From Laetmonice hystrix (taxonomy: Eukaryota): DNA of 64,000 nt. The notes below the pieces were generated by a model that did not search any database, was not told the origin of the DNA, and worked only from the letters and a program-made list of their open reading frames with translations. This document shows positions 26,156 to 52,897 of the stretch, in pieces. A program made the position numbers and the translations under genes. Numbering within the stretch: position 1 is the first letter of the stretch; every line of letters begins with the position of its first letter. The stretch covers positions 11,968,001 to 12,032,000 of the forward strand of contig OZ249436.1 in NCBI GenBank assembly GCA_965235115.1. The letters run 5' to 3'.

Positions 26156-26268
26156 TAACATGCAGTGTATGATTTGTGAATTAAATTGAACATGTTAGAA
26201 CACAGCGGTGAGAGCTCTCTTTGAACATATTGTGTGGTGATTAGATATTGATACAGTGATGTTAACAG

Positions 26269-26435
26269 GATGGAGACAGATGACAACGAGGAATCGGTTC
26301 AAGCACTGCGTAACCTGGTGCTGCTCGTAGGATCGTTGACAACATGTGGATTCATCGAGCTCAAACCTGCAACCACCAGCTCCGGATCTCTCTTCCAGAT
26401 GCCTGGATTCTCTGTACCACAACCTACAGGAAAAG
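26269..26435 (+). CDS. WDFY3: WDFY3 exon 6 (METDDNEE...PQPTGK)
   Basis: taacag| ... G|gtaaga; phase 2->1. Confidence 0.92.
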
Positions 26436-29023
26436 GTAAGACATGGTGGGATTTACGCATATGGACAATTGGAGAATTGCCATCGTGAAAATGAAGATGC
26501 TTAACATAAGAGTGTTAGTAAGAGTCATACTCAAATTTGAGTTTGAAGCGTAGTCTGTCAGACACTTTGTGTGCTGTCCTGTGAGTAGGACCATCATGAA
26601 AAGTCGTATAGAAGAGATGAAGGAGCAACACGAAATGGATCTGCTCCCTGACTGCAATGCGATTCTAAGTCAGTGTCGGCACACAACTATAATTACATTT
26701 ACTGGGCAACGCTAAGGTCTTTAACACACCAAATGCCACCATTAGCGTGAAAGACCTCCATTATTTATTAAAGAGGTTGTCGGCGAAATTACATGTATTA
26801 CCTTTATGGATCTTTATAGTAGAATTAGTATTGTAGCATAACATGTAGAATATGACAGGTTACTCAAGTACATGTAGTGGTAAATAGTAACAACTGGTGA
26901 AGGGCCTAGTTTGTCTTACCTAGAGTGTAATGAGATAGTTTGTACCAGTCTGGTTAAAACGTAATAATGGATAAATTGTCAGTTCAGTATCAATAACTCA
27001 AAAAGAATCAACCAGTACATAAAAGCAATGCCGCTCTTTTTACGCAATCACGGTAGATTGTTTTTATTGTTTGTGCAGTTATATTGCAGTTTACTCTTTC
27101 CATTATCTATGTAGCTAGTTTTGATATTCAAACTGATAGGACAGAAGCCAATAATGTGGAAAGTGTAGTAGGCTGCTAGCATCACATGAGAAGATAGTTA
27201 CCATGCTTCATCAATCCATTTTATCGTATATTTTCTGTCTTTGCCTGTTCTTCTCAATGTAATATCTTGTGCATGAAACTAAAAAGCGTAATGCAAGGTT
27301 TTCGAGTTGGAGGAGGGAACATTATTTCCTTTCACCCCGGCAATGTGAAGATAAGTTTTCATGTCGTTAGCTTTAGCATTGCGTCAGCTTCTACCCGAAT
27401 CTCCTCCCATTTATCAGTATGTGAACCGGTGTGTTGCTTGGGAAGTAGACAAAATTTGGCCATGCTGAGTCACATGAAGAGTGTTGTACAGTTAGTGAAT
27501 ATCAAAACTGTTTCTTTTTCACACTTCTTTTTAGTTGGTCCCTCCGTTTTCGGGTCAGCAGGTAATGCCAGTTTGGACAGTATTTTAGGACTCCCTCCTG
27601 GCTGCAGCACTAACCCCAAAAGCTTAAACTGTAAGCTTCCGTCCCCTAACCAATCAGCCTGATGTGCCCGACGGCCACCAGGGGGTAGCACGTGAAGGTT
27701 GGCTGAAGACGTGTGGCTCGGCCTTTTGAGGAGTTGACTGGGTAGAAAATAAACTGGTGATCTGGGGGGCTGATTATATCCTGAGTGTGCATCTTCGGAG
27801 TGATGGACACGTTGGTGATGACGCAATATGGGACGTGAGCAGGAGAAATTGTTGGATATTGCGCATGATTTTTTTCATTGTCTGCTCTTTTATAACCATT
27901 GACTAGCCGGCCAAGGCAAGTAACAAGCCTGCATGAGTCCTTGCTTCCTCATAAATTCCCACTATCTCCCTCTCATCCTCCCTTTCTCTCCGTCGCTCTC
28001 CCTGTCTCTTTGATTCTGTTTCTTCCTTGTATTGCTCTCTCACTTTCTGATGCTCTGTCGCGTTTCCACACAACAGTAAGCCCCAGAAACACAGTCCATA
28101 CTAATACTGGTTAATGGAGTTGATGATGATTTCGGATCTGTTCATTTTCAATCTAATTTAAAGAGATGCCTCCTGAATTTTATGTTTTAATGAATGACCT
28201 ATGAGACGGGCTAGTCTGTAACATTTAATGATTAACATTTTGAGTTTCTGAAAATAAGTTCAGTTGAATTTACCTGTTTAACAGTTGAGTTGTTTTATAC
28301 ACTACGGCAACATATTTATGGTTAGGTCAGGTGTACCTTATGTAAACAATACATTCTGAACTGACAAGTAGAAATCTCATGATATGGATATATGTTTATT
28401 GGTTATATTGTTAAATTTAGGTTTATAGAAATCTACCAACCCCTAGATCCCGGGTACCATAGGTTTCTTATGTAGGAGCTCTGTTGAATTTTTTTATTAT
28501 TATTTTTATTGAGGAAGAACTTTTTTTAGGTTAAAATGTTAGATTCAATAGCAGTATTGTAAAATTATGATACAGATTGTAATCTAATTCAGTGAAAGTA
28601 TGATATTAGTTTTTTGTTTATTACTATTTCTTTCGAATGAATGATGTTTTGTGTATTAAAGTTGGTAGTGCTAGGCTTTTCATAATCTATGGATTTCATA
28701 GTGACCCTATCAGACCTAAATTTCCTGCAGATATGTACTGGTAATGTCCTCATCGAGATCTCATTGAGATCCTGCTACATGTATACTCTACACATATGGT
28801 TGCACTGAATACCCAATATAGATTATTATAACCAAACTGAAAGATCATTGCTTGGTATCCTGAACTGGAGCAGTATCGCATCCTTGTCTGTTATAATTTC
28901 ATTACAATAGTTGTACTTGCCAACCTCCCTCCTGTGCCAGTATTTTTAAATTATTAGCACTCGTATCATGAATGCAACCATCTTGTCCATTACTACAACC
29001 GGTATTGTGGATTATCCCTTCAG

Positions 29024-29192
29024 GGCCCAGTTTCAGAAAGGTTAGCATGATCTTAACTTAAGCTCTGCTTAGCCTTTTAGGACCCCTGATTGGCTGGTCT
29101 TCTGCTGCTCAGATTCAACCAGTCAATCAGGGGTCCTAAAAGGCTAAGCAGAGCTAAAGTTAAGGTCATGCTAACCTTTTTGAAACCGGGCC
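29024..29192. mobile_element. Palindromic Harbinger-like MITE, copy A
   Basis: About 75-bp arms GGCCC...GGGCC, about 19-bp spacer, CAG TSD. Confidence 0.88.
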
Positions 29193-29408
29193 CAGGATTC
29201 AGTTTTTATATTGCAAATAACTATTGTTATTACAACACATAGTTAGGTGACAGAGAGAATCCAAGCATTGGCTCTGGCACAAGTGCTGATCAGTGCACAC
29301 TTCTAGGCTGGTGCAGTGATTCAGCATTAGCAGACAGCTAGGCTTTACAGAATTTGCACGTATCACAAGGAATCCTTTTTCTAATCTTTCGTGGCATCTG
29401 CATTCCAG

Positions 29409-29464
29409 GCGTGAGTGTCCGAAACCTACAGGCTTTTCAGGTGCTCCAAACAGTCTTCATCAAG
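29409..29464 (+). CDS. WDFY3: WDFY3 exon 7 (GVSVRNLQAFQVLQTVFIK)
   Basis: ttccag| ... AAG|gtaggt; phase 1->0; read directly, too short for ORF track. Confidence 0.9.
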
Positions 29465-29636
29465 GTAGGTATGAAATAGTGTGTTGTAGTTTCTGGAACC
29501 ATGTAGGAACAAGTGATAAATATAATAATCAGTGAAAAAAGATATTTCAAGAAGTATGTATTACATACCAGAAAGGTTTACAATACATGAAAGTCTCCTG
29601 TTATTGCCTAACCTGCTTTGTATGATCGACCTTCAG

Positions 29637-29783
29637 AGCTCATCAACCCATCTGTGCAGTACCATTCTGGATGTAATCAGCAGCATCTACCACCAGGACA
29701 ACGCCAATTACTTCATCCTTGAACCTCAGTGTACACTCTCCCAGTTCGCTGAGCGCATTCACCTGAAAGCTCCTGAAGTCCAG
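29637..29783 (+). CDS. WDFY3: WDFY3 exon 8 (SSSTHLC...APEVQ)
   Basis: cttcag| ... CAG|gtgagt; phase 0->0. Confidence 0.92.
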
Positions 29784-29888
29784 GTGAGTGTCATTCACGT
29801 CTTTTATAAATTATCAGAATAGAGTGTGAAGCATACCGTTAAGTGAAATTACTTACAAATTTTAATGATGACCATTCTATTTTTTCAG

Positions 29889-29986
29889 TACAAGTTCTTC
29901 GAGATGCTTGAGTTTATTGTCTTCAATCTCAACTACGTGCCCTGCAAGGAACTAATCAGTGTATCAATTCTCATTAAGACAAATTT
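29889..29986 (+). CDS. WDFY3: WDFY3 exon 9 (YKFFEMLEF...PCKELISVSILIKTN)
   Basis: tttcag| ... TT|gtaagt; phase 0->2. Confidence 0.92.
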
Positions 29987-30274
29987 GTAAGTAGCTCATG
30001 CCGATTTTACGACTTAAATATCAAATGATTAATACTCATTTATAAATTTATAATATGAAGTTAGTTTGGAGGGTTTTATGTGTTTCAGTGCAGTTAGCTG
30101 GTGTTTCGACTATTCCATGGTGCAGTCATTGATTTAATAAAATCTTTAGATTGTAAAGCAGTTTAAAGTCTCTAACAGATGGAATTTGAATGAGATTAGT
30201 TATAGTAAAACTAACATACAAATGTATTAGAGTTACAATATATCGCTTGACCTGTGTGTTTGTGGTTGGTTCAG

Positions 30275-30432
30275 GTCAGTTGAGTGTAGCAAGTTGTGCA
30301 TGCGGACTCTACTGAAGATACTGAGGCACCACGCCGTCTACAAGGACGTGTTCCGTGAGGTGGGCCTGCTCGAGGTCATGGTCACGTGTCTGCACCGCTA
30401 CGCTGCACTCCTCAAGGAGCCAGAACGAAGTG
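30275..30432 (+). CDS. WDFY3: WDFY3 exon 10 (SVECSKLC...KDVFREVGLLEV...PERS)
   Basis: gttcag| ... G|gtacgt; phase 2->1. Confidence 0.9.
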
Positions 30433-32969
30433 GTACGTTCAACAAGCTATCCATAGCAATTACAGATTCAGAACACACTAGCCTAAAAACTTATATTACA
30501 TGTGTATGTATGTAAAGGCCTTTGTGTTTTATCTGGAAAAAAACATACATATCTCGTAATAGAAATTCGTGAGGATTTTGCACGAATATGGGAAAGTGAT
30601 TCGGAAAATTGAGGACAAGGTTCTGAATATAAATGAGAAACCTTGATGTATCTTACTTTCCCTTCTAAAGAAAGCTGCAGACACAAAAACTGGTAGTCTT
30701 AAGTCATTTTGCTCACAATAGAATACTGTATTGTTGTCAAGACTAAAAGTTATATCTTGAGGTACATGTATACTCAACCTATTGTATCACGGGACTTATT
30801 TTGGTCTGGGTTACAAAGATTCAATTCCATCTCCATAGCTTTGGTAATGTGGTGGTTCTTTAAAACGTGAAATACCGTTATCTTTCAGGTAGTTCAGACT
30901 AACACTACATCCGAATAATTATGTGCAGACGTTGGACTAGAGAGGATAGTTATTAAAAGGAGGAAAATAAGAAGAGAAACTGGTTTTGTATTATTAATGA
31001 TTACTGACATGAAGAAGCCTTTCAGAGTTCGGCCTTTGCCATGGTGTTAGGAGAGATCGAGTCAGGCCCCATGCTCAGCGTGTGTTCCCTGGATATGAGT
31101 CCAGTCACAGCAAACAAACGGCGAGGTCTGACAGCCCCATATTGCATGTGACCCATGTAATATGTTTTCAGATGGAGGGGATACGGATGGAGATTATTAT
31201 GATGATGATGAGTATGATCCTGAGGTTCCCCAGGGATACATCGTAGGTAAGATGCGTGCAGGTGCTGCTTCACCTTGCAGCCCTGTACACACAATACCCA
31301 CACACAGAATACACACACACGCCGGCCTAGGAAGGTATAATACCGGACCGGACCTGGCTTCTTCTTACAAGGGTGGAGAGTGTTAAGACAATCTGTCCCT
31401 CTCTCTGTCTCTCTCTCATGCTTTGGGAACCCGTTGTCCCTTTCAGATGGTAAGATACCGGTATTTGGTGGCCAAGGGTGATGCTTGACTATGGTGTTGG
31501 TTGGCTCCGGTGAAGCTTCGGACCATTTCCTGAATCATTATAATCTTTTTGATCATGGTGCTATTGAACATCATTTCAGAAATTGGACATTTCTGTTATG
31601 GTAAACAGTTATTTGTATTGCTGGGCATGCAAAATATCTTGCGTCTTTTCTCCTTGAAAAGCAATTTTCCGTTTGTGATTAAAATTTCAGCTAACCTTTT
31701 CACTTTTTTTGTATTTTTTTACAAGTATAAGACATCCTGGTTTATTTTTTGCTGTGTAGGTACTAATCATATTAGTTTTTATTTAAAGTCCGCTGCCTAT
31801 TTGGTCGAATAATTTGCCTGAAAAAGCAGTTGAACTCCTTTGTGAATCATAGGCCTAACAATCAGAAAGACCTGACTGTAGACACTTATATTTCGCAATT
31901 ACTACTTATCCAGTTAACAACAGGTACCATAGTTAGTTGACTTTCCTCGGCCGCATCTACTTTTCTCTCTTTCTATTTATTACTAAAGCCTAAAAGAATT
32001 ACAATGCTTACCTTCTAGTCGCAGGCAGTTCAGTTATTTTCACAACACATACTAACACGATTGCATACATTTGTTAGATTTTAAGTTCATATATTTATAA
32101 ATGATACACTATTTTATATCACAAGAGTAGATTATATGATTTTGCATTTTGTTTAGTCTAAGATTGTTCATCTGTAAAAATAAGGAAAGTGCAGGCCGAA
32201 GATTATCCCACTGGATACCTCTATTGTTTTAAAGAGATTAAACTCGGGTACCTTTGTGTACTTGGCTGTTTTGCACGTTAAATATATGATATTCTACTCA
32301 AATCATGAAGGTCGCAGGGACATGAACTGATTTTTCCGCAGACCAAACAAGTGTGATAACTCTTAGCAACAGTCTGGCTTATTAGTATGATTTGCCTGTT
32401 TCAAGTCCGCATGAGAAACCCTCCCCAGGAATGTAGCATCTGTAGCACGAGCATGCATCTTATATTTTCTTTCCTTTTGCTGCCCCTTATGTTGACATTG
32501 ATTCAGTCATTATTGGACCCATAATCAGCCTGGTTGTTCCCCCGTTCTGTCCATATAATTTGTTTTCAGCAGTGATTCTCCTATATTGTGTCAGAGAGAA
32601 AACGGAGGTAGCAGCCTGTTTGAGACACGCTGTATAATGGTTGTACCAGGTCACCGACTGAGTGTGCTAATGTCCACGACCTATTGACTTTCAGGTGACC
32701 TCATATTATGTGCTGTGGTGTGAATCTTTGGTGGCTCCGAGTCTATTGAAGTATTGTGACCCCATGGTCAATGGTCCTCTGTGGTGCTGGTGGAGAGTAG
32801 GTATCGGCAGTCCCGATGGTGAAGGTGGTGGTGGTGGTCCTCTCCGACGCTCCCTCTGGTGTCGTACATTGCTCCTACCGTCAGTTTGGTATAGTGATGG
32901 TAGCGCTCCCTGGTGGTAGTATGTCAAACTAACAGGATCTTCAATGTTACGTTTTTGTCTTTACTATAG

Positions 32970-33062
32970 ATTCTGCAGACATCCCCGAACCTGAACAGGA
33001 GATGGGATTTTTGGTGATGGAAGCACTCGCTGTACTGCTCAACTCTAACTCTCAGAATGCAG
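32970..33062 (+). CDS. WDFY3: WDFY3 exon 11 (DSADIPEP...LVMEALAVLLNSNSQNA); alternative in-frame acceptor at 32979
   Basis: ctatag| or ctgcag| ... G|gtaaaa; phase 1->1. Confidence 0.85.
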
Positions 33063-33206
33063 GTAAAATAATGTTCTTCAATCTGAGTTGAAATATTTAT
33101 GAACTAAGGCTATATTACTGAATAACTTTCTATAACTTTCTATTCTATTGAAAATAATATTTTAGCCTGTGACAAGCTTTCACTTGTACTGTATGTGCCC
33201 TTTCAG

Positions 33207-33400
33207 GTGTGTTCCAAATGTGTGGGGGTGCCCGGTGTGCCCACAACATGGTACCCTACCCCCAGTGCCGACACCAGGCCCTCAGTATCGTTCAACAACT
33301 CGTCCTCTCTAATGGGGGCGAGGATGATATGGGCACCTTGCTCGGGCTCATGCACACAGCACCAACAACAGCACTGGAACTCAAAACACATATACTCAAG
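33207..33400 (+). CDS. WDFY3: WDFY3 exon 12 (VFQMCGGARCAHN...KTHILK)
   Basis: tttcag| ... AAG|gtattt; phase 1->0. Confidence 0.92.
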
Positions 33401-33604
33401 GTATTTCATATCTCTTTCTGCAGGATTTCTGTGTGAGATAATGTTAAATAAGGTTCATTAAAGGTTTAGCTTGAGGAAATCATTCATTGTATCAGTTGTA
33501 TTATTGAATTTTGTCAGTTGTAATATGCTTTTCTTGAAAGAGTCTGATTACATTGTACTTGCATAATTTTTAGACTTCTTAAATTTGTCTTTATTTCATT
33601 GCAG

Positions 33605-33743
33605 TCATTGTTGAATGTTTTACGAGAAAGTCATCGGACAAGAACCTTGTTCAGAAAGGTTGGAGGGTTTGTGTATGTAATGTCAGTACTTGTCTCCATG
33701 GAAGGCTGCCTGGCTGACCCACCCAAGGCACCGTGGGACACAG
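33605..33743 (+). CDS. WDFY3: WDFY3 exon 13 (SLLNVLRESHRTRT...PWDT)
   Basis: ttgcag| ... G|gttggt; phase 0->1. Confidence 0.92.
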
Positions 33744-34095
33744 GTTGGTCCATCCTTACCAATGTTCAGTTCTGTCTCTCAGTAAACTCTTGTCTCAGTG
33801 CCATAAGGCTTTATATGATAAGAAATCAACAAGACCTGCGAGATGAACTCATGACTAAAGACCTTGTTAGTATGAATTCATAAACTACTGTAATGAAATT
33901 TGATTGTCATTCATCCTCATGGTGACTCCAAAAAAAATCCCAAACTTTGCTGCCTCTTAACTCTGCATCCCTGTATTGAATGTATCAGATTGGGTGTAGT
34001 AGCAGTAAAATTGATTATATTAGAAGGGGAATCAGATCAGACCTTTGTGTGTTCTGTGGTGAAGTATATTATTTGATGTTTGTTATGAACGCCAG

Positions 34096-34196
34096 CCAAG
34101 AGAAAGGATGTCATCACTCTCCTGAAGACTGTCTTCAGCACGCTGACAGTTGCTATGAGATACGAACCAGCCAATGCAAAGTTCTTTGCCACAGAG
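34096..34196 (+). CDS. WDFY3: WDFY3 exon 14 (KRKDVITL...AMRYEPANAKFFATE)
   Basis: cgccag| ... GAG|gtaaga; phase 1->0. Confidence 0.9.
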
Positions 34197-34522
34197 GTAA
34201 GAAATACATGGTGGGATCACTTTGAGGATAGAAAAGCTTTTGTTTAAACCATCAAGCAAATTGCAGCCCTTGACATTGGTTTGATGTATTCATTGGCATG
34301 GAAATACTTAACGTTTTAAAAGTTTGTGATTGTTAGACAGATTATTATAATTAGTCAACAGTAATACTTATTACCGGGATAAGGTTGTGCATGGTCATAC
34401 CTTTCTTACTTTACTCCAGTTTTAACATACCATACATTATTTGTACATGTATTGTTTTATGTGATGAAAGTGTGACTACCCTAAAACTGATTGTGATTTG
34501 TTGGTATATACAACTCTACTAG

Positions 34523-34665
34523 GTCCGCTATGCAAGTTTGACAGAGGCAGTGAGGCTGTTAGGATGCTTTGCAGGCGAGACGGACATTCAGGTCTTGAAA
34601 AAAGGCATGATACCACATGAGGACACTGCACTTACTGAATTCTTTTATAATCTCAAAGAGAGCAG
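34523..34665 (+). CDS. WDFY3: WDFY3 exon 15 (VRYASLTEAVRLLGCF...)
   Basis: tactag| ... AG|gtaaag; phase 0->2. Confidence 0.9.
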
Positions 34666-35012
34666 GTAAAGCAGATTGTGAGCTTAATAACAACATCACT
34701 AAAATCATTAATATATTATGAGACCCTCAAAGTCTTGAACCTGGGGTGACCCCAAGGGTATTTCTTCTTTTTTTTTGGGGGGGGGGAGGTAACAACTTTT
34801 TTTCGGATGGTTGGAAAAACCATGTTTATGCACATTTGGAGGTATGTTAGATAAATATCAGGGACAGGTCCCTTGATTGAGGCTGTTGAGCATAACACAT
34901 AGGAAATCATGATTCTGGTTGCATCTTTAAACACTTTGTCTTTTGATAAATTCTCAGTTTATCAACGTGGATCAAGCTCATAATGTTAACCCTTATGTTG
35001 GTTTTTTTTCAG

Positions 35013-35126
35013 ATTAAAAGCTGACTTTCCACGTAGTCTATTGTCAGCAACATTGATGTTGAGATATCTGTATGATATGGCTCTGGATAATTTTGACAAG
35101 TTCATGTCAGACCTGGAAATGGACAA
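35013..35126 (+). CDS. WDFY3: WDFY3 exon 16 (LKADFP...RYLYDMALDNFDK...)
   Basis: tttcag| ... AA|gtaagt; phase 2->2. Confidence 0.88.
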
Positions 35127-35256
35127 GTAAGTAGATTTATAGAATCTTTTTAGTCTGTTACGACAACATCTCTCACCTTTAACATTGTCCAGGCAATGAA
35201 AGGCCCAGTTTAGTTGCTCTGTGCTTGAACTTGAGATTTTTCCTTCCTTGACACAG

Positions 35257-35515
35257 CGCCCCATGTTACAGTCGACCAGTGGTGACCCAGATAGAAAACA
35301 CTTCACCCAGTATGAAGAGGATATCCTCAGTTCTCGAGACAAGCACTGAACCACACGATCCCCCGCAGCCCCCACATAGCCTGGTGAAACGGAACAGTAC
35401 GGGTAGTCTGACTCTCAACTCCACCCCACCTCCTCCAGAGCCTATCATCGTACACGCTGGAGCAGTCATCTCAATGTTACATCTAGTCCCTGGCATTACC
35501 TGCAGTGATCAACAG
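35257..35515 (+). CDS. WDFY3: WDFY3 exon 17 (APCYSRPV...IIVHAGAV...SDQQ)
   Basis: acacag| ... CAG|gtagtt; phase 2->0. Confidence 0.88.
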
Positions 35516-35735
35516 GTAGTTTAGCTTTCAGGGACATTATTTACAATCGTGGCAATCCATAAACTGGATAATGGTACATTCTTTGCTAATATGGCAAAGA
35601 AGGCAGGTTAAAACAGTAATGTGGGTTGTTTGCAGTATAGAGGACATCAACTATTTAACTAAAGACCAAGTTCAGATTGTGAAATTTTCACTAGAAAGTA
35701 TTCGATTCTCAGGATTCTGGTGTTGCTGATTTCAG

Positions 35736-35950
35736 TTGACTCTGGACCTACAAGCTCACACATGTGAAGTACTCAAGTCCCTGGTACGGAGTGAACGTAA
35801 CCAACAAGTTATGTGTGAGGCTGGTTTGCCGCATGAGTTACTGGCCCATGCAAACGTCACGCTGGCCGATGAGTCTCACCAACTCCACCCACCCATACAG
35901 TATATGTTTGAACGACTCGCTGCCCAATGTCTCACACCCAAGGACCTCAG
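35736..35950 (+). CDS. WDFY3: WDFY3 exon 18 (LTLDLQ...ERNQQVMCEAGL...PKDLR)
   Basis: tttcag| ... AG|gttaat; phase 0->2. Confidence 0.92.
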
Positions 35951-36219
35951 GTTAATAAGGATTCTTTTAACATGATCTCATTTCAGTGTTTAAAAGTCAG
36001 CCAAGCTTCTACTATTCTATGGGTAATTCAAAGATTAAACAAAACTAGATATTTGTTTTAATTTTATGGTAATCGGGATTGTAATTTACTTGCATCATTA
36101 ATGAAACCTCTTGATGAAGTTTAAGATTGTTACATTTTACTGTTTGTGCAAACCAGTAGCAGTTTTGTCATCTGTAAAATTTCCATTGGCAATAATTGTG
36201 TTTATTTGGTATTTTACAG

Positions 36220-36623
36220 GGACTTCCTACGTCTCGCTGACCCTCTTTGTTGTGCAGCAGAAAGTGAAGTAGATGGACAAAATCAATTAGAATCGATTCC
36301 AAACTACCCAACTTTTACCCCAGACAAAGCTCCGCTTTTAGAAAAACGAACAGCTCTGGATATCAGCAAGAAGTTAAAGACCAATGGTGGGGCTGTGCCA
36401 CTAACTCGGGTCAAATGCCTTGTATCCATGACAACACCCCGTGACGTGCGACTCCACGGAGCATCCATAACGCCAGCCTTTGTGGAGTTTGACCTGAGTG
36501 CAGAAGGTTTCGGTTGCCTCTATCTGGCCAGTATAGCACCTCAGGGACCACCAACGCCCTCTGTTGTTGGAGCGGGTATGATCGGTGGATCTGATCCCGG
36601 TGTGGTTGGAGGTATTGGCACTG
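36220..36623 (+). CDS. WDFY3: WDFY3 exon 19 (DFLRLADPLCC...VPLTRVKCLVSMTTP...GGIGT)
   Basis: ttacag| ... G|gtaagc; phase 2->1. Confidence 0.93.
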
Positions 36624-36873
36624 GTAAGCAAAAGTGTTAAATTGTTTCCCAATTTCTAATGTATTTTTAATTTTAAATGATATTTAAACGATTTTAAATG
36701 ATATTTAAACGATTAGTGAGAGTTTGCTGGTTGTTTTGATGACCTACCAGGACACAAAGCTTAGAACTAAACACTTCACACTTTGTCAAAATTTCGATAA
36801 GATTTGAAACATGCTATGGGTGTTGGCAACATTAGTGTCTTCCTTGCTCTAGTCACTGACCTTGTATCCCCAG

Positions 36874-37095
36874 GTGAACGGCTCTTCCCACCACAGTCAG
36901 GCATGACGTTCTCGTCATGGATTTGTGTGGACAAGTTTAGTATGGCTGTTACTGACCCTCACCCTGTACGACTACTGACCGTTGTCAGGAACATCGCCGG
37001 CCGTGACGATAACCTTATATGTCTCAGTGTTCACCTTGCACCACGTGACCGAGCACTGTTTGTGTCTACACAGGAGAAACATATGCCTGCTGCAG
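36874..37095 (+). CDS. WDFY3: WDFY3 exon 20 (ERLFPPQSGMTFSSW...), start of ConA-like region
   Basis: ccccag| ... G|gtgggg; phase 1->1. Confidence 0.9.
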
Positions 37096-37373
37096 GTGGG
37101 GTTCAATCACAGTTAAACACAGCATCGAAATTACTGCATTGATATTTTCAGGGTAGATTTTAAAAGTTTCATTGCACATATATTTTAAAGAATAAAGACA
37201 GGGACAAGCTCATATTGTGAGGTGTAATACGTTTTGTGTTTTTTTTGTCCAGAGAAATATTTTGTCTTAAATTTGGAAGACTTTACGTGAGGACATATGT
37301 TAAGAACGTACAGTATAAATGTAAGAATAGGTAATAGCAAACTTGTGATAACCAAGACGAACTGTAACGGCAG

Positions 37374-37552
37374 GAGGCAGTGACCTGGAGATGGAACCCA
37401 TCCTCAATGATACCAACGTCAGGTTCTGGTGCCCGGAGTTGACCCAGGAAGGACAGTGGCGCCACCTGGTACTCCTTTTTAACAAGGCAGGAATCATGAA
37501 GAACTCCTCGGTCAGCCTCTTTGTGGACGGACAGCACATCAACACCCAAAAG
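37374..37552 (+). CDS. WDFY3: WDFY3 exon 21 (GSDLEMEP...GQWRHLVLLF...VDGQHINTQK)
   Basis: cggcag| ... AAG|gtaagc; phase 1->0. Confidence 0.88.
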
Positions 37553-37578
37553 GTAAGCATGTCATCTTCTGGGTTCTG

Positions 37579-37747
37579 GGCCCGGTTTCAGAAAGGTTAG
37601 CATGATCTTAACTTAAGCTCTGCTTAGCCTTTTAGGACCCCTGATTGGCTGGTTGAAGCTGAGCAGCAGAGGACCAGCCAATCAGAGGTCCTAAAAGGCT
37701 AAGCAGAGCTTAAGTTAAGATCATGCTAACCTTTCTGAAACCGGGCC
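37579..37747. mobile_element. Palindromic Harbinger-like MITE, copy B (inverted relative to copy A)
   Basis: Same arms as 29024-29192; spacer is the reverse complement of copy A's; flanks CTG/CAG. Confidence 0.88.
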
Positions 37748-37901
37748 CAGAACATGAAGTGCACCATACGTCTAGCATCTGATTATATTTGAATTGAATC
37801 CACTAAATTTCTCCTTATTTCTCAGCATTGAGTGATGATAATTCTAGTTGATGCCTCAGGTCCTGGCTGATGTTGTATATCTCTAACCTCGATTCCTCCA
37901 G

Positions 37902-38130
37902 CTCCACTATATCTCCCCAAACCTGGGCAGTGGAGGTACCGCCAGCCCCAACGCTGCTACATCAGTGTTTGCATACATTGGGACACCACCACAGCTGCGT
38001 CGTCTCTCCCGCCTGGTGTGGCGCCAGGGACCTAGTCATCTTCTGGAGGATATCATCTCCACCTCTGCAGTCCAATTCCTCTACCAAATAGGCCCAAATT
38101 ATGTTGGCAGCTTTCAAGCACCAATTGGTG
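37902..38130 (+). CDS. WDFY3: WDFY3 exon 22 (LHYISPN...AYIGTPP...GPNYVGSFQAP)
   Basis: ctccag| ... G|gtaagg; phase 0->1. Confidence 0.92.
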
Positions 38131-38421
38131 GTAAGGTCATTGAATTCTCCAAGCTTGATCGGATATCGTAGAGGGGTGTTCCAGAGAATAATATCTTTGG
38201 GGTCAGATTTTAAAGGAATACCCCCTAAAGTATTAACCATCATATCACAACAATTGTGTTTACCAAGTCCTGCTTACCCCAACCCCCTTGACCTAAAACC
38301 TGGACCTGCCACTATTAATTAACTACAACTTCACGGTTTTACTTAGGACAGTGCAGATCCATCTAAGTGTTAACCTGTTGATCCTAAGGTACCTGCATTA
38401 GGGTGATCTTTATTGTTACAG

Positions 38422-38561
38422 ACAAAAATGAGCTCATGCCACCAGTGGTGTCGGAAGACAAGATCATGTTTGGCGTCCATGCACATGCCATGTCTCTAAT
38501 GACCATCGCAAAGATAAGAAAGGTCTACAACAAGGTGGATGCCAAGACTATAGCGAAACAG
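38422..38561 (+). CDS. WDFY3: WDFY3 exon 23 (KNELMP...KIRKVYNKVDAKTIAKQ)
   Basis: ttacag| ... CAG|gtcaga; phase 1->0. Confidence 0.92.
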
Positions 38562-38780
38562 GTCAGATTTCTTATCTTCTTATTTGTAAGTCATAATACA
38601 AAGGACATTAAGATGTCAATTGTAGGGGCATAATACTAAGTTTGTTCTTGGAATATGGCATTTGTTCTGACTGGAAACCCCCTGATCAGACGGATTTCTC
38701 ATGCAAGGGCCTTCGGTTGTAGCATAGAGTCAGTCCCAGAAAATTTGGAAAGGATTTCATTTTGGTCCATTTGAGAAAAA

Positions 38781-39615
38781 GCCATAGTAGCAGCCCATAG
38801 CGCTGTGGTATGACTCTAAAGCCATAGTAGCGGCCCATGGCGCTGTGGTATGACTTTAAAGCCATGGTAGTGGTCCATGGCGCTGTGGTATGACTCTAAG
38901 GCCATGGTAGTGGTCCATGGTGCTGTGGTATGACTCTAAGGCCATGGTAGTGGTCCATGGCGCTGTGGTATGACTCTAAGGCCATGGTAGTGGTCCATGG
39001 CGCTGTGGTATGACTCTAAAGCCATGGTAGTGGTCCATGGCGCTGTGGTATGACTCTAAAGCCATAGTAGCGGCCCATGGCGCTGTGGTATGACTCTAAA
39101 GCCATAGTAGCAGCCCATGGCGCTGTGGTATGACTCTAAAGCCATAGTAGCAGCCCATGGCGCTGTGGTATGACTCTAAAGCCATAGTAACGGCCCATGG
39201 CGCTGTGGTATGACTCTAAAGCCATAGTAGCGGCCCATGGCACTGTGGTATGACTCTAAAGCTATAGTAGCGGCCCATGGCACTGTGGTATGACTCTAAA
39301 GCCAGAGTAGCGGCCCGTGGCGCTATTGTGTGACTCTAAAGCCATGGTAGCGGCCCATGGCGCTGTGGTATGACTCTAAAGCCATAGTAGCGGCCCATGG
39401 CGCTGTGGTATGACTCTAAAGCCATAGTAGCGGCCCATGGCGCTGTGGTATGACTCTAAAGCCAGAGTAGCGGCCCGTGGCACTATTGTATGACTCTAAA
39501 GCCATGGTAGCGGCCCGTGGCGCTATTGTATGACTCTAAAGCCATGGTAGCGGCCCGTGGCGCTATTGTATGACTCTAAAGCCAGAGTAGCGGCCCATGG
39601 CGCTATGGTATGACT
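38781..39615. repeat. 40-bp minisatellite, about 21 copies
   Basis: Unit gccatagtagcggcccatggcgctgtggtatgactctaaa with variant blocks. Confidence 0.97.
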
Positions 39616-40673
39616 GCCAGAAGAGGCTGGGAATTGAGGTGAATGTATCTCCTCGGCTAGGATGAGATGGCAGAGGTACTTACTGATGGGATTCGCAGTG
39701 CTATGATTGACTCGTTCACCAGTTTTTTCATCCAGAAGGTAAGAGTTTGGAGCACAAGCCCCTGGAAGGCAATCCTTACGCCAAGGCTACGTGTGCTTGC
39801 CTATGGGCCAATCCTGGGTGAGCAAAGGATTGATCATGGCATCCTGAGGGCTAAATACTGCTTGGAATCAGATCCTGGGGCATTAGCATCATCAGTACTG
39901 CCCAGTGCTGGTGAACTGCTTCTAGTCCCCCTCCTGGCCTGGCTTGGAGGACCAACTAGTTTATTAGCGTATACCATAAACATCCCAGTAAAGGTTAGTT
40001 TGTGGTATCACAGCATCCTTAGATCTCTGCGTGTGTCTGGTGTGCAGCTTGAATAGTTACTATGGTAGGAGAAGAGATTTGCTCTCACTAAGGTCAAGTG
40101 TTACTATGGTAGGAGAAGAGATTTGCTCTCACTAAGGTTTAAGTCCTAGGTCTGACGGGTCAGTGTGACCTTCTGGGAGGGGAGTTCATTGTGTAATCGT
40201 TATGTTATATTATAAGGTCTGGAATCATACTTGATGGTACCATTGGTAAGATTACCGGTATAATTATGCAAATTGTCACGACATATCTCTATCCTATTAC
40301 TTGATGTACTTGAATTTCAGTGTTCAGAGATTTATATAATGGCATTTATATAATGGCATCATATATAAGAGTTATCGTTATAATGATCACTCAAGGTGTT
40401 ACTTGGTATTTGGTGTACATACATGTAGTTTGTTTACAGGTGTTTGATAAGTATTTCTCATTTTTCAGTCTTCAGCTGTTTTCTAGATAGCTACACATGT
40501 ATAGGTGTTTAGTAATGTCAAGTATAGCATTAGTTGCCGAAGCAAATTTGAGAAACGCAATACCTGTACATTTTGATCCACTAACAGTGGTAAATATATA
40601 AAATGCTGGTAGAATTTGGAGCACAATATCATGGAATATTAGAGAATTTTCAGCTTTCATTGTTTACTTTCAG

Positions 40674-40785
40674 CTGGGGATGTCAGCCCACGAGAATGCA
40701 ACCCCCATCAGGATCCTGCACAACTCAGCAGGCCACCTGAATGGGCCAGCTCGCAGCTTTGGCGCTATTCTCATGGGCTACCTAG
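40674..40785 (+). CDS. WDFY3: WDFY3 exon 24 (LGMSAHENATP...MGYL)
   Basis: tttcag| ... G|gtcagt; phase 0->1. Confidence 0.93.
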
Positions 40786-40964
40786 GTCAGTGCCAGCACA
40801 GGCAGTAAATGGGCAAAGCCAGTTGGCAAACATTGCTTAGGAATTGTAATTTTGTTATTGTAATGTAAAACTGTAAAATGACTACAACACTTTGAATGCT
40901 GGATGAACGTGCCCACCAGAGTATGTGTAGTGTTTGAATTAATGTGATGTCGTGAATCTCTCAG

Positions 40965-41155
40965 GGGTACGAACATTCTGTCCAAGGCCTGTCGCAAAGA
41001 TGATTCTGAACGTTGGAGGTACATCAGCATTACTTGGGTTGATTGCCATGGCAACAGACGTGGAAGGACTGTATGCTGCTGTGAAGGCATTGGTGTGTGT
41101 GGTCCGAAGTAACAGGGTGGCACAGCGTGAGATGGATAGAACTCAAGGCTACCAG
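40965..41155 (+). CDS. WDFY3: WDFY3 exon 25 (VRTFCPRPVA...TQGYQ)
   Basis: tctcag| ... CAG|gtattg; phase 1->0. Confidence 0.93.
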
Positions 41156-41303
41156 GTATTGTAGAATGTTTTTATAGTTTTCAAGTTTGCCTTTTAAAGT
41201 GTCTTTTCAGATAAGAATGGTGCTTGTCTTGTGTCTAGTGTCCCGTCCTGGATACTGTGTAGGAGGAATCAAGACTTGATACGTCATCCTTTGTCGTTTT
41301 TAG

Positions 41304-41456
41304 ACACTGGCAATGTTGTTCAAGAAGAAGCGCCACCTGTTGAACAGCCACATTCTTCACCTAACCTTCTCCCTGGTGGGAACCGTAGATAGTGGACGAG
41401 AGAGCACCGTCATTCCAAACAGTGACGCATTCCAGGACTTACTGTGTGACCTCGAG
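41304..41456 (+). CDS. WDFY3: WDFY3 exon 26 (TLAMLFKKK...FQDLLCDLE)
   Basis: ttttag| ... GAG|gtaact; phase 0->0. Confidence 0.93.
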
Positions 41457-41647
41457 GTAACTCTACAGTCACATTACATTAGACATCTGAAGTTTTAGTC
41501 ATATAAGCTTCATTTCTAAAGTTTAAAGAAAAATATATGCTGTTTCGTAAGGCGATGGCTAGTTAAAAAGAAATCGATGACATATTTAGGATGGAATGAT
41601 CTTGGAGGATCTTAGATTTTTTTTTATTTTCCACCCCTCTTACTCAG

Positions 41648-41721
41648 GTATGGCATGAGGCCCCAGGCGACCTCCAGAGGTCCCTGTACGAACACTTCTT
41701 TGAACTTCTCACTGAAAGCAG
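41648..41721 (+). CDS. WDFY3: WDFY3 exon 27 (VWHEAPGDLQRSLYEHFFELLTES)
   Basis: actcag| ... AG|gtttgt; phase 0->2. Confidence 0.92.
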
Positions 41722-41841
41722 GTTTGTACCCATGACTATTTGAGCCATCATTGCTTGGAAACATACCATTTATATTGGACATATTCCAATATAAAGGCTG
41801 TCCCAGGGAGTTGACTGACTGTTATTCTCTCAAACCTGCAG

Positions 41842-42000
41842 TGAGCAGAAGCTGAACTTGAAGTTGATGCAGGAGCTTGGGTTGGTGAGCAAGCTACTGC
41901 GCATCTTGCGTGACCCGTCGCTGACCCACCCCACTGTGCAGACCATCTCCAGTGTACTGACTGTCCTCCTGGGTAACGTCCATTCCACGTCACTCCTCCG
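41842..42000 (+). CDS. WDFY3: WDFY3 exon 28 (EQKLNLKLM...STSLLR)
   Basis: ctgcag| ... CG|gtaagt; phase 2->2. Confidence 0.92.
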
Positions 42001-42236
42001 GTAAGTCCCATTGGAACAGTATTATTCAACAGTATGAATGAAATCGACCTGTATCTATGGAAATTTTACATTTAGAGTAAATATTAATGGAGGAATGAAC
42101 CTGTATTCTTGTGCAACACAGTTCATTTAATGAATTATTTGAAATCAGTTTGTAGCCTTTCTTGCTAGGTTTTGAAGTGTTGAGACGATTTTTAGCTCGG
42201 ACAGTAGGTATTACAGATGATTTTATGTTGTAACAG

Positions 42237-42364
42237 GTTTGGACAGTTTGTAGTATCCACTCTACCAGCATACAATGTTTCTGAGAAAGGCATCGCCCTG
42301 ACCGAGACTGAGGTTATGTTGGATGGAGTTGACAGGAAGCTCTTGCCTAACACAGACGTTACAG
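42237..42364 (+). CDS. WDFY3: WDFY3 exon 29 (FGQFVVSTLP...TDVT)
   Basis: taacag| ... G|gtcagt; phase 2->1. Confidence 0.9.
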
Positions 42365-42603
42365 GTCAGTGCATCAGATAACAGCGCTTCCTACCAACTC
42401 AGGCCTTCTAATGGTAACAGTATTAGTTTTAGGGGAACACATAGGTCATCTATATATCGGTATTAATGCCGTAACTATCTACATTACAGAATGATACACA
42501 GGAGCTCACAGAAATCTTAGTATTATAGATTCAGTAAGTATTGTAATACCCAGACAAAGAGTACAGTATTGTAGTCTAATGAATTGTTACCTGTTTCGTG
42601 CAG

Positions 42604-42715
42604 ATGGTGAAAACGGAGCTGTGTTGATCCACAACATCCAGCTGCGCAATCAGCTGTTAATGATCCTGTTTAAGCTGCTGCAGTCCCACCCGACAAGTCA
42701 TGGGGTTAACATGCA
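42604..42715 (+). CDS. WDFY3: WDFY3 exon 30 (GENGAV...IQLRNQLL...GVNM)
   Basis: gtgcag| ... CA|gtgagt; phase 1->2. Confidence 0.9.
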
Positions 42716-42901
42716 GTGAGTAGCTGAATAATGGCATGATAAAATATTCCATCTGAGAAAATTGCCTTATGTTAATACTGGAATATATTTTAGATTCTAT
42801 GATAAGTACGCCACTTAAAAAAAAGATATGTAGAATCTAGTCTCGTACTTAGTCTAATGATTTGAAAAAGGTTTTATAAAGGAGCCACTTTCCTTCAACA
42901 G

Positions 42902-43119
42902 AATGGTAGAAGAACTTCAACGAGTGCTCGGGTTTGACTGGCTGACGCTGTTCATGCAAGGCGGGCTGCATCCGTCAACTGTTGTGTTGGCCATGCGCAT
43001 GCTGGTGGTCCTGCTGGCCTGGCCCTCCGCTATGAACAAGTTCCGTGAGGGGCTGTGTGGCGGCGGCTGGTTGAGTGAGACCGAGTGTGTGCTCCAGAAC
43101 AGGATTGGCATGGTGCTAG
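42902..43119 (+). CDS. WDFY3: WDFY3 exon 31 (MVEELQRVLGFDW...GGGWL...IGMVL)
   Basis: caacag| ... G|gtaagt; phase 2->1. Confidence 0.93.
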
Positions 43120-44148
43120 GTAAGTGGATGGATTCGTGTATTCCTCACAAATCGTCTGCCTGAGCAATTTGATGATTACGGTGTGGCGTGTACAGTGACT
43201 AAGGTGTCCATTTTGATGTGGTCTTTGTTTCTGTCCCATATTTTACTTATCAATGTAATTAAAAGTTGTGTCAAAGCTAATATGTAACATTTACCGGTAA
43301 GTGAAACAGTTAAGCCCATGTAATTGGACACGAAACCGAGGTTAAATCTGCAAGTTCTGTTCTGAAAGTCTTGCTTTGGCTTCCACTGACTGTATACTCC
43401 ATAATAAAACATGAAGACAGTCATTCAGATTTAGGGATTGAAATTCTGTGTAAAATCCAGAGAAGTTGACCATACCTGCCCTGACTTTACTTCCTACAGT
43501 CAGCTCAGAGAGTACTGTGAAACGTGAGCACTTTGTGTTCTGAAGTAACTCAGTGTTTAGATGTCAATTTTGGTATAGAAACACATTTTGAGCACCTTTT
43601 GTCGGTAGTCTGCTCAAGAAATATTCTACAGAAGAATATTACATGGAGAACCTGTATCAACCTTGGCTACCACATTTTGTAAATTGGCACGATATCTTCA
43701 GGGGATTTTCATGTGTGAAGAATTCAAACATCCTATTTTTGTCTCTTTTGGATGTTGAATTCCGAGTAACCTTATTTTCAAGCCATGTTGTGCACTCTTG
43801 CCATCTCAGCGTAGAAAACTTCCACAGGTACTGGTGTTCTAGGGCACTTCATTTCCATGGTTTACATTATGGCCAGAGCTGACTGAATGAGCAAAGGACT
43901 TGTGAACCTGTTGCTCAGAAGCATAGATTATTTTATTGCTATACTCCGACTTCTTTCTGCTACCTAATTTTTTTTGTGTATTTCCCTGCTTGGTCCCTTA
44001 CTCGCTTTAACCCTCATTCTCTGTACGTATCAGATTATTACATTTCTGTCTTACCAACAAACAGCCGTATCTCTCCTCAGAGATAATTCTGTCAGTAGTG
44101 CATGATATTCCACTGTTATGTTGTTCACCTGTCTCAGACTGTTTTATC

Positions 44149-44425
44149 CTGATACTGTTGGTGATGCTGTTTTATCTAACCTGATACTGTTGGTGATGCT
44201 GTTTTATCTAACCTGATACTGTTGGTGATGCTGTTTTATCTAACCTGATACTGTTGGTGATGCTGTTTTATCTAACCTGATACTGTTGGTGATGCTGTTT
44301 TATCTAACCTGATACTGTTGGTGATGCTGTTTTATCTAACCTGATACTGTTGGTGATGCTGTTTTATCTAACCTGATACTGTTGGTGATGCTGTTTTATC
44401 TAACCTGATATTGTTGGTGATGCTG
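44149..44425. repeat. 32-bp tandem repeat, 8 full copies plus 1 partial, abutting the exon 32 acceptor
   Basis: Unit ctgatactgttggtgatgctgttttatctaac. Confidence 0.97.
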
Positions 44426-44429
44426 ACAG

Positions 44430-52678: not shown

Positions 52679-52897
52679 AATACATGGTGATGGAAGAGAG
52701 TTTATCTTTCTGTGAATACATGGTGATGGAAGGGAGTTTATCTTTCTGTGAATACATGGTGATGGAAGAGAGTTTATCTTTCTGTGAATACATGGTGATG
52801 GGAGGGAGTTTATCTTTCTGTGAATACATAGTGATGGAAGAGAGTTTATCTTTCTGTGAATACATGGTGATGGAAGGGAGTTTATCTTTCTGTGAAT
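52679..52897. repeat. 36-bp tandem repeat, about 6 copies
   Basis: Unit aatacatggtgatggaagagagtttatctttctgtg. Confidence 0.95.

What the first reader, a model, noticed from the sequence alone, without database searches (positions are those of the whole stretch)
26436..44429. A hidden frame-preserving micro/cassette exon programme across the WDFY3 N-terminal half
Seen: six intronic AG...GT segments (27, 33, 75, 3, 78, 24 nt) are all multiples of 3, stop-free in the phase of their host intron, and mostly have good pyrimidine tracts. They sit in the four introns over 1 kb (6, 10, 23, 31) among otherwise short introns in this part of the gene. Established: Alfy/blue cheese is a selective-autophagy scaffold with neuronal roles. 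Inference: combinatorial splicing could remodel loops of the scaffold in a tissue-specific way. I know of no description of this for an invertebrate WDFY3 but cannot search. Caveat: I picked these by eye, and pseudo-exons arise by chance in long introns.
Basis: partly seen in the sequence, partly recalled or inferred. Interest (0 to 1): 0.7.

Follow-up and report, generated by a model that had tools for sequence, protein, structure and literature searches.

The report
Tiny optional exons in worm Alfy
In a segmented worm's gene for the cell-cleanup scaffold Alfy, one intron hides very short optional exons, including a 9-base one shared with two other worms, a new example of a known kind of fine-tuning by splicing rather than a gene-wide hidden programme.

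Summary
The window holds 34 coding exons of an annelid WDFY3/Alfy gene. All six segments exist as described: AG…GT, 3n, stop-free. Strong frameshifting pseudo-exons are just as common, though (3n in 71 of 205 and 15 of 44 pairs), so 3n length alone shows nothing.

Comparative data support intron 6. It is the longest local intron in three other lophotrochozoans. Five of 26 lophotrochozoan orthologues (all molluscs) and a spliced annelid contig carry in-frame inserts at exactly this junction. A bivalve contig holds the matching 33-nt exon.

The 33-nt and 3-nt candidates carry the CU-tract, UGC and long AG-free signature of neural eMIC microexons (only 2 of 96 comparable sites have such a CU-rich tract). 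The 27-nt and 75-nt candidates are plausible, and the 24-nt is unsupported. The 78-nt is doubtful: its junction has no indel in 120 orthologues and its intron is absent in the nearest relative.

No RNA of this species was available, so inclusion and tissue specificity are untested. Verdict: a real intron-6 hotspot of a known kind, not a demonstrated gene-wide programme.

The parts
26269..26435 (+). WDFY3 coding exon 6 (upstream flank; phase-1 donor)
   Evidence: Gene model; orthologous exon 71-84% identical in L001-L004
26436..29408 (+). Intron 6, the alternative-exon hotspot
   Evidence: Longest local intron in L001 (674 nt; introns 1-5 and 7-14 are 87-181), L002 (1959 vs 232-709) and L004 (4550 vs 547-902); inserts at this junction in 5 molluscan proteins and P0229
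27535..27561 (+). Candidate A, 27-nt cassette; plausible (about 0.55, my estimate)
   Evidence: Donor 8.9 bits, acceptor 4.6, AG-free zone 37 nt, no UGC; lies in the stretch without listed variants; no homologue shown; a 3-nt reading (27559-27561) uses the same donor
27907..27915 (+).
   Evidence: Same length and same -2..+7 donor word in L001 4131-4139 and L002 2685-2693; 1 of 1500 dinucleotide shuffles; AG-free zones 59, 140 and 51 nt; UGC at -24 here and -28 in L001; in frame in all three; own acceptor weak (-0.3 bits)
27937..28076 (+). CU-rich, AG-free 3' splice-site region of candidate B
   Evidence: 137-nt AG-free zone (P about 0.01 in Markov simulations; intron 1 also holds a 153-nt zone), 15 CUCU/UCUC, UGC at -26
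28077..28109 (+). Candidate B, 33-nt cassette; likely (about 0.7)
   Evidence: eMIC-like 3' region; its donor is the only one of 2.5 bits or more within 120 nt and gives an open 3n exon; L001 has a strong CU-rich acceptor in the same order after its 9-nt exon, but only a weak in-frame donor; poor coding-likeness
29023..29197 (.). High-copy inverted-repeat element (MITE-like) inside intron 6; a source of false splice pairs, not an exon
   Evidence: 76-nt arms, 93% complementary; summed contig depth 31,000-98,000 against 27-91 elsewhere
29409..29464 (+). WDFY3 coding exon 7 (downstream flank)
   Evidence: 83-100% identical in L001-L004
31172..31246 (+). Candidate C, 75-nt acidic, Tyr-rich cassette in intron 10; uncertain (about 0.5)
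   Evidence: Donor 8.5 bits, acceptor 4.0, AG-free zone 35 nt, UGC near -29; coding-likeness in the top 12% of stop-free intron pieces; no homologue among 314 proteins; a stronger acceptor inside it gives a 13-nt frameshifting exon
31350..31449 (+). Candidate D, 3-nt microexon (31447-31449) with its CU-rich tract; likely (about 0.7)
   Evidence: Acceptor 8.0, donor 7.4, AG-free zone 57 nt, 12 CUCU/UCUC, UGC at -28; inclusion would give the +1 loop length seen in 11 of 26 lophotrochozoan orthologues; no counterpart found in L001 or L002
32443..32466 (+). Possible long-range pairing partner of the donor of candidate C (approximate ends)
   Evidence: 19-nt inverted repeat; -28.9 kcal/mol, top 0.3% of intron windows, 1 of 15 sites tested
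39661..39738 (+). Candidate E, 78 nt in intron 23; doubtful as a coding cassette (about 0.2)
   Evidence: Donor 9.7 bits but acceptor 2.6; better acceptors give 3-, 16-, 40- or 118-nt exons; no indel at the junction in 120 of 120 orthologues; intron absent in L001. In its favour: coding-likeness in the top 4%
43500..43523 (+). Candidate F, 24 nt in intron 31; unsupported (about 0.3)
   Evidence: Acceptor 6.8, donor 2.9, AG-free zone 32 nt, UGC near -23; junction lies in a length-variable, low-confidence loop; no relative's genomic copy of this intron was available

Best explanation
Intron 6 of lophotrochozoan WDFY3 is a long-lived site of alternative splicing. In this annelid it holds a small cluster of normally skipped, frame-preserving exons: a 9-nt GC-donor microexon conserved among annelids, probably the 33-nt exon, and perhaps the 27-nt one. 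Intron 10 probably holds a lineage-specific 3-nt microexon and perhaps the 75-nt exon. Proposed mechanism (inferred): weak splice sites keep these exons out by default. A long AG-free, CU-rich tract with a UGC next to the 3' splice site lets an eMIC-domain Srrm234 protein, which is neuron-restricted in invertebrates studied so far, bring them in. This adds 1-11 residues (26 if both intron-10 exons are used) to two surface loops of the helical solenoid without breaking its fold. The 78-nt and 24-nt segments are most likely pseudo-exons or low-level events. Shown: the sequences, the cross-species conservation at intron 6, and loop location on a predicted model of a related annelid protein. Inferred: inclusion in this species, neural regulation, and any effect on function.
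For: (1) In-frame inserts at exactly the intron-6 junction in 5 of 26 lophotrochozoan full-length proteins (+3, +8, +10, +11, +14). The flanking residues of three of them fit only a phase-1 cassette, not a shifted splice site (inference from the codons). (2) An intronless annelid contig (L003/P0229, 86% identical to the window model) carries an 18-nt insert there. (3) Bivalve contig L004 has an AG..GT 33-nt segment whose translation matches the Mya insert at 10 of 12 residues. (4) The 9-nt GC-donor exon is shared by the window, L001 and L002. (5) Intron 6 is the longest local intron in all three genomic relatives. (6) Of 96 AGs with an AG-free zone of 50 nt or more in the window's long introns, only B and D have five or more CUCU/UCUC. 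Both have UGC at -26/-28 and an open 3n first donor. CU tracts number 3 on the sense strand and 0 antisense. This matches the eMIC signature described in bioRxiv 10.1101/2021.02.24.432780, section 9. (7) None of 14 listed variant events in intron 6 falls in the A-B zone (P 0.0075). (8) Junctions 6 and 10 are coil between helices in the AlphaFold model of P0001.
Against: No transcript of this species was seen, and no protein in the searches carries any of the seven inserts, including the annelid 3-residue one. The annelid, gastropod and bivalve inserts are not alike in sequence, and the 18-nt exon of L003 has no match in the window. 3n length is not enriched overall. The shuffle P for the 9-nt exon depends on the donor-word length, which was chosen after seeing it: 0.0007, 0.013 and 0.17 for 9, 7 and 6 letters. 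One 9-mer shared by the three introns is expected 23% of the time on its own. L002's copy has no UGC within 40 nt. The UGCs lie 24-28 nt from the AG. L003 has an in-frame stop near its end, so it may be an error-bearing contig or a processed copy. The variant table hid 39 rows, and the three runs are one sample; the C-D zone test is not significant (P 0.25). Intron 10 is short in L001.
Confidence: 0.62

Rival explanations
1. All candidates are chance pseudo-exons in introns lengthened by repeats and neutral sequence; the reader simply picked the 3n ones.
For: 3n fraction 34-35% among strong pairs; higher-scoring frameshifting pairs exist; tandem arrays and an inverted-repeat element inflate introns 23, 31 and 6; no homologous peptide for any of the five candidates long enough to search.
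Against: Does not explain the 9-nt GC-donor exon in three annelids, the inserts at junction 6 in molluscs and in L003, the matching genomic exon in L004, or the consistently long intron 6. It remains the likeliest reading for E and F alone.
Confidence: 0.1
2. One reading: all six segments are real and form one coordinated, tissue-specific programme across introns 6, 10, 23 and 31.
For: All six are open 3n exons; A, C and D stand out under the AG-free-zone plus strong-donor filter; E is coding-like in the right frame; F has a fair acceptor with UGC.
Against: Junction 23 has no indel in 120 of 120 orthologues and the intron is lost in L001; E's donor has better acceptors of other lengths; only B and D carry the CU-rich signature, so a common regulator is not indicated.
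Confidence: 0.08
3. The intron-6 and intron-10 exons are real but not neural eMIC targets. They are controlled otherwise (muscle or stem-cell programmes such as MBNL/RBFOX/CELF, or RNA pairing over the donor), or some donors serve frameshifting 'poison' exons that tune Alfy levels.
For: Human WDFY3 exon 46 depends on MBNL1/2 and RBFOX2 (PMC5453322, passages); the donor of C can be masked by a strong long-range duplex; the donors of C and E pair best with acceptors giving 13-nt and 3/16/40-nt exons; A and L002's 9-nt exon lack a UGC.
Against: B and D show the long AG-free zone, CU tract and UGC together; the conserved exon is 9 nt and in frame in all three species.
Confidence: 0.2

Closest known systems
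eMIC (Srrm234 / SRRM3-SRRM4)-dependent neural microexons of bilaterians
   Same: Very short, frame-preserving cassettes with weak sites, long AG-exclusion zones, CU-rich tracts and a UGC near the 3' splice site (bioRxiv 10.1101/2021.02.24.432780 section 9; PMC8797185 passages). B and D fit; the 9-nt exon fits in part.
   Different: Neural inclusion and eMIC dependence are untested here. Fly targets have short flanking introns, whereas these sit in 2.5-3 kb introns. The conserved exon uses a GC donor. Fly bchs is not in the paper's Table S2 (0 hits).
Vertebrate WDFY3 alternative exons (mouse 84-nt MmuEX0051785, listed as eMIC-sensitive; human exon 46; RefSeq 5-, 15-, 18- and 28-residue cassettes)
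   Same: Same gene, frame-preserving cassettes in the region before the BEACH domain, one of them eMIC-sensitive.
   Different: They map to junctions 2, about 16, 29 and 32 of the model and beyond, none to 6, 10, 23 or 31. Equating the 28-residue difference with the mouse 84-nt exon rests on length only.
Molluscan WDFY3 RefSeq isoforms with inserts at the exon 6-7 junction (Gigantopelta, Haliotis, Aplysia, Biomphalaria, Mya)
   Same: Same junction, same phase, 9-42 nt, in frame; a genomic exon is confirmed for the Mya-type insert in L004.
   Different: No sequence likeness to the annelid exons; these are automatic annotations, and no paper describing them was found.
Recurrently evolved tissue-specific exons in orthologous genes (for example fly syd and spg; bioRxiv 10.64898/2026.09.05.749416)
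   Same: Small exons arising repeatedly in the same gene in different lineages (passages).
   Different: That main text has no mention of WDFY3 or annelids; its supplements were not seen.

Membership tests
WDFY3/Alfy (blue cheese) orthologues | Colinear N-terminal solenoid homology to WDFY3 proteins, grouping with animal orthologues | tested here: met
   64-71% identity over 1,907 aa to lophotrochozoan WDFY3; groups with Ridgeia and Helobdella, 95/96 support
WDFY3/Alfy (blue cheese) orthologues | C-terminal PH-BEACH-WD40-FYVE domains | not testable with these tools
   No exon after exon 34 was modelled in the window and no genome is held; the orthologue P0104 has them
Alternative cassette exons (intron 6) | Both skipped and included forms exist at the junction | tested here: inconclusive
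   Across species both forms occur (21 without and 5 with, of 26; L003); within one species not shown, because isoform lists and RNA were unavailable
Alternative cassette exons (intron 6) | Exon conserved across species in the same intron | tested here: met
   9-nt exon in the window, L001 and L002; 33-nt exon in L004 and Mya. Not met for A, B, C, D
eMIC-dependent neural microexons | Short and frame-preserving | tested here: met
   3, 9 and 27 nt fall in the 3-27 nt class; 33 nt is near the 31-nt fly median; C and E are longer
eMIC-dependent neural microexons | Long AG-exclusion zone, CU-rich tract and UGC near the 3' splice site | tested here: met
   Met for B and D; partly for the 9-nt exon (AG-free zone and UGC, little CU); not for A or E
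eMIC-dependent neural microexons | Strong branch-point motif | not tested
   No branch-point scores were reported by my scripts
eMIC-dependent neural microexons | Neuron-enriched inclusion | not testable with these tools
   No RNA holder listed for this stretch
eMIC-dependent neural microexons | Inclusion lost without the Srrm234 eMIC domain | not testable with these tools
   Needs knockdown or a minigene assay
Coding cassette in a tolerant loop | Insertion point is a loop or varies in length among orthologues | tested here: met
   Met for junctions 6, 10 and 31
Coding cassette in a tolerant loop | Same test for junction 23 (candidate E) | tested here: not met
   0 of 120 orthologues with an indel; the model of this part was unresolved

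The most novel reading that the evidence does not exclude
The loop encoded at the exon 6-7 junction of Alfy has been a regulated splicing switch throughout Lophotrochozoa. The intron position persists while the microexons in it are replaced lineage by lineage, with one GC-donor 9-nt exon kept across annelids. In this species a stacked 27/9/33-nt cluster and a 75/3-nt pair, gated by an RNA duplex over a donor, give neurons a combinatorial set of Alfy isoforms with different partner binding in selective autophagy.
Probability: 0.25. Interest if true: 0.62.

Novelty: new member of a known kind. Interest (0 to 1): 0.42.

Why it matters
Alfy/WDFY3 is a scaffold for selective autophagy (PMC5453322 and PMC9117662, passages) with neuronal roles (own knowledge), and no solved structure matched its large N-terminal solenoid. 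A loop that annelids and several mollusc lineages repeatedly remodel by microexons points to a candidate interaction surface that can be tested in any animal. It also gives a clean lophotrochozoan example for studying how microexons turn over at a fixed intron; the cross-bilaterian splicing preprint read here does not mention annelids. In practical terms, GT-only, protein-guided annotation misses such 3-nt and GC-donor exons. It is not a new mechanism.

Tried and rejected
- No whole genome is held for this window.
- No RNA holder was listed for 29400-38600; this says nothing about expression. The three listed runs are contigs of one sample that cover the introns and showed no joint at any candidate.
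- Isoform lists per species could not be queried, so within-species skipped/included pairs are unverified.
- The rest of the contigs behind L001, L002 and L004 could not be reached, so intron 31 has no comparison.
- Five candidate peptides (A, B, C, E, F) against 314 fetched proteins gave no convincing match.
- Six foreign junction-6 inserts against window intron 6 gave none.
- The profile search with P0229 (best 150 of 1,191 hits; 78 new proteins scored at junction 6) gave no further lophotrochozoan cassette. The long inserts of +18 to +52 look like read-through of introns and were set aside.
- Local DNA alignment between the four intron-6 sequences scored no better than shuffles overall; only the donor word stands out.
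- Rfam over 24000-46000: 0 matches. No stable fold between A and the 9-nt exon (z +1.4).
- Pfam and the ESM Atlas gave nothing usable for E, its longer ORF or C.
- The long AG-free zone before 44034 in intron 31 has no donor above 1.8 bits.
- The second structure model did not resolve junction 23.
- Literature: WDFY3 + microexon, 0 papers; Alfy/WDFY3 + splice variant + invertebrate, 0; bchs + alternative splicing, 2 listings, not read; further searches. The library lacks most subscription papers; VastDB and bioRxiv supplements were not visible and may list these exons.
- Earlier scan notes: nothing.

Full report
GENE AND ORGANISM. Exons were placed by coordinate and checked by translation. The window holds 34 coding exons on the + strand (4484-45588), 1,907 codons with no stop, and every intron is GT-AG. 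The product is a WDFY3/Alfy N-terminal half, 64-71% identical to the nearest lophotrochozoan orthologues. It groups with the annelids Ridgeia and Helobdella (95/96 support; 24 rows). No further exon was modelled after exon 34.

THE OBSERVATION. I label them A (27 nt) and B (33) in intron 6, C (75) and D (3) in intron 10, E (78) in intron 23, and F (24) in intron 31. Scored with matrices from the gene's own 33 introns, a small training set, D, A, C and E rank 5, 19, 27 and 32 of 4,603 pairs; B and F are outside the top 45. With repeats masked, strong pairs are 3n in 71 of 205 and 15 of 44 cases, which is chance. Only the filter 'AG-free zone of 30 nt or more and donor of 7 bits or more' gives an excess: 4 of 6 open 3n pairs on three donors, against 0.6 in shuffles and 2 of 6 on the reverse strand. 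It was one of eight settings tried. The list as a whole is therefore not validated by its lengths.

REGULATORY SIGNATURE. eMIC-dependent neural exons are described as having weak sites, long AG-exclusion zones, UCUC-rich tracts and a UGC near the 3' splice site (bioRxiv 10.1101/2021.02.24.432780; I read section 9 and passages). Among 96 AGs with an AG-free zone of 50 nt or more in introns 1, 2, 6, 10, 23, 31 and the stretch after exon 34, only B (15) and D (12) have five or more CUCU/UCUC; the next has 4. Both have UGC at -26/-28, and in both the first usable donor gives an open 3n exon. Dense CU tracts number 3 on the sense strand and 0 antisense over 64 kb. This picks out B and D without using length, but CT-rich tracts also arise as microsatellites.

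ORTHOLOGOUS PROTEINS. At junction 6, 5 of 120 full-length proteins carry an insert, all molluscan RefSeq isoforms (+3, +8, +10, +11, +14), and 3 have a 2-residue deletion; that is 5 of 26 lophotrochozoan proteins. The junction residues of the Haliotis, Mya and Gigantopelta inserts cannot come from a shifted donor or acceptor, so they imply cassette exons (inference). P0229, on the intronless 1,775-nt contig L003 and 86% identical to the window model, has an 18-nt insert at the same place; that contig also has one in-frame stop near its end. Junction 10 is a loop of variable length. The commonest lophotrochozoan length is one residue longer than the direct exon 10-11 join (11 of 26), which D would supply; this is weak evidence. 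Junction 31 is variable. Junction 23 has no indel in 120 of 120.

GENOMIC RELATIVES. On a tree L001 is nearest to the window and L003 next, with weak support; L002 groups with Helobdella (90) and L004 with Mya (99). Intron 6 is the longest local intron in all three genomic loci. Intron 10 is ordinary (124 and 592 nt) and intron 23 is absent in L001. L004 holds an AG..GT 33-nt segment matching the Mya insert at 10 of 12 residues, so that annotation is a real, conserved exon.

THE MISSED EXON. The window, L001 and L002 each hold a 9-nt in-frame segment after an AG-free zone of 51-140 nt, followed by the same GC-type donor word AG|GCAAGTA. The places are window 27907-27915, L001 4131-4139 and L002 2685-2693; the pattern occurs nowhere else in these sequences on either strand. 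Shuffling the two foreign introns reproduced a shared length plus 9-letter donor word in 1 of 1500 trials; shorter words give 0.013 and 0.17. The exon lies between A and B. It was invisible to a GT-only reading, and no fetched protein shows it included. After it, L001 has a strong CU-rich acceptor in the position of B, but its in-frame donor is weak; I count this as a lead only.

VARIATION. Contigs of one sample laid on 26200-33800 differ from the window at 40 listed substitutions and 12 listed indel rows, with 39 and 7 rows hidden. I used the 40 substitutions and 10 indel positions, leaving out the two indel rows inside the repeat element, and merged them into events. None of 14 events in intron 6 falls within 150 nt before A to 100 nt after B (P 0.0075), and none of 6 in intron 10 falls near C-D (P 0.25). 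Hidden rows and shared haplotype blocks make this weak support.

STRUCTURE. In an AlphaFold model of the Ridgeia fragment P0001 (mean pLDDT 73), junction 6 (about residue 113) is in extended coil and junction 10 (about residue 267) is in a short loop between two helices. In the P0072 model, junction 31 is in a low-confidence loop and junction 23 is unresolved. No solved structure matched this half of the protein.

C, E AND F. C has a strong donor, a modest acceptor, coding-likeness in the top 12%, and a stronger internal acceptor that would shift the frame. Its donor can pair with 32443-32466 at -28.9 kcal/mol (top 0.3%; 1 of 15 sites tested), a testable hint of control by RNA structure. E is coding-like (top 4%) but has a weak acceptor, an invariant junction and an intron lost in the nearest relative. 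Its donor pairs best with a 3-nt reading at 39736-39738, the top pair of all 4,603. F has only local features.

WHAT IS KNOWN. Mouse Wdfy3 has an 84-nt exon listed as eMIC-sensitive (PMC8797185, one row of Table S2; passages). Human exon 46 is regulated by MBNL and RBFOX2 (PMC5453322 and PMC9117662, passages). Vertebrate RefSeq isoforms differ by cassettes at junctions 2, about 16, 29 and 32, not at 6, 10, 23 or 31. Recurrent gain of small neural exons in the same gene is a described pattern (bioRxiv 10.64898/2026.09.05.749416, passages; supplements not seen). Nine searches (listings only, unless named above) found no description of invertebrate WDFY3 microexons.

VERDICT. There is a real alternative-splicing hotspot in intron 6 with a newly found conserved GC-donor microexon, probable microexons B and D, uncertain A and C, and doubtful E and F. 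It works like, and probably is, ordinary bilaterian microexon regulation. Membership of the neural eMIC class rests on sequence features only. The probabilities given per exon are my estimates.

Noticed in passing
window 57352-59853, - strand: An 834-codon open reading frame for a leucine-rich-repeat protein (Pfam LRR_8, E 7.5e-68) on the opposite strand, probably nested in the long intron after WDFY3 exon 34.
   Followed up: partly
window 29023-29197 and about 37580-37750: Two copies of a roughly 175-nt palindromic element; the intron-6 copy is very high in copy number in the genome. The second copy, in intron 21, was seen by eye.
   Followed up: partly
window 38778-39615, 44148-44425, 52679-52897: Tandem arrays of 40, 32 and 36 nt. 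The 32-nt array runs up to the acceptor of exon 32, giving a 290-nt AG-free zone.
   Followed up: partly
window 39736-39738: A 3-nt AG..GT reading on candidate E's donor is the top-scoring pair of 4,603; it would add one residue at an invariant junction.
   Followed up: partly
window 43925-44033: A 105-nt AG-free, pyrimidine-rich zone ending in a good acceptor (6.6 bits) in intron 31, with no good donor downstream.
   Followed up: partly
L001 6698-7509: Intron 15 is the only other long intron in this compact gene and holds a 69-nt in-frame AG..GT candidate at 7156-7224; the window's intron 15 is short.
   Followed up: partly
L001, junction 23 (about 10710): Intron 23 is absent in L001, and the sequence also runs on without a break at junction 27.
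   Followed up: partly
window 27907-27915 and 29409-29417; L001; L002: In L001 and L002 the 9-nt exon begins much like exon 7, which may hint at origin by duplication of the exon-7 acceptor; the window's copy is less alike.
   Followed up: no
window 31172-31246: Candidate C would encode an acidic, Tyr-rich peptide loosely like an FFAT motif (motif recalled, not tested).
   Followed up: no
P0095, P0102, P0112 at model residue about 1519: Scallop, nemertean and millipede proteins carry 7-12-residue inserts at junction 27, possibly another splicing hotspot; the window's intron 27 is only 120 nt.
   Followed up: no
P0110 (Mya) at junction 10: Five residues longer than the Mactra protein at the position of intron 10, compatible with a 15-nt cassette.
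   Followed up: no
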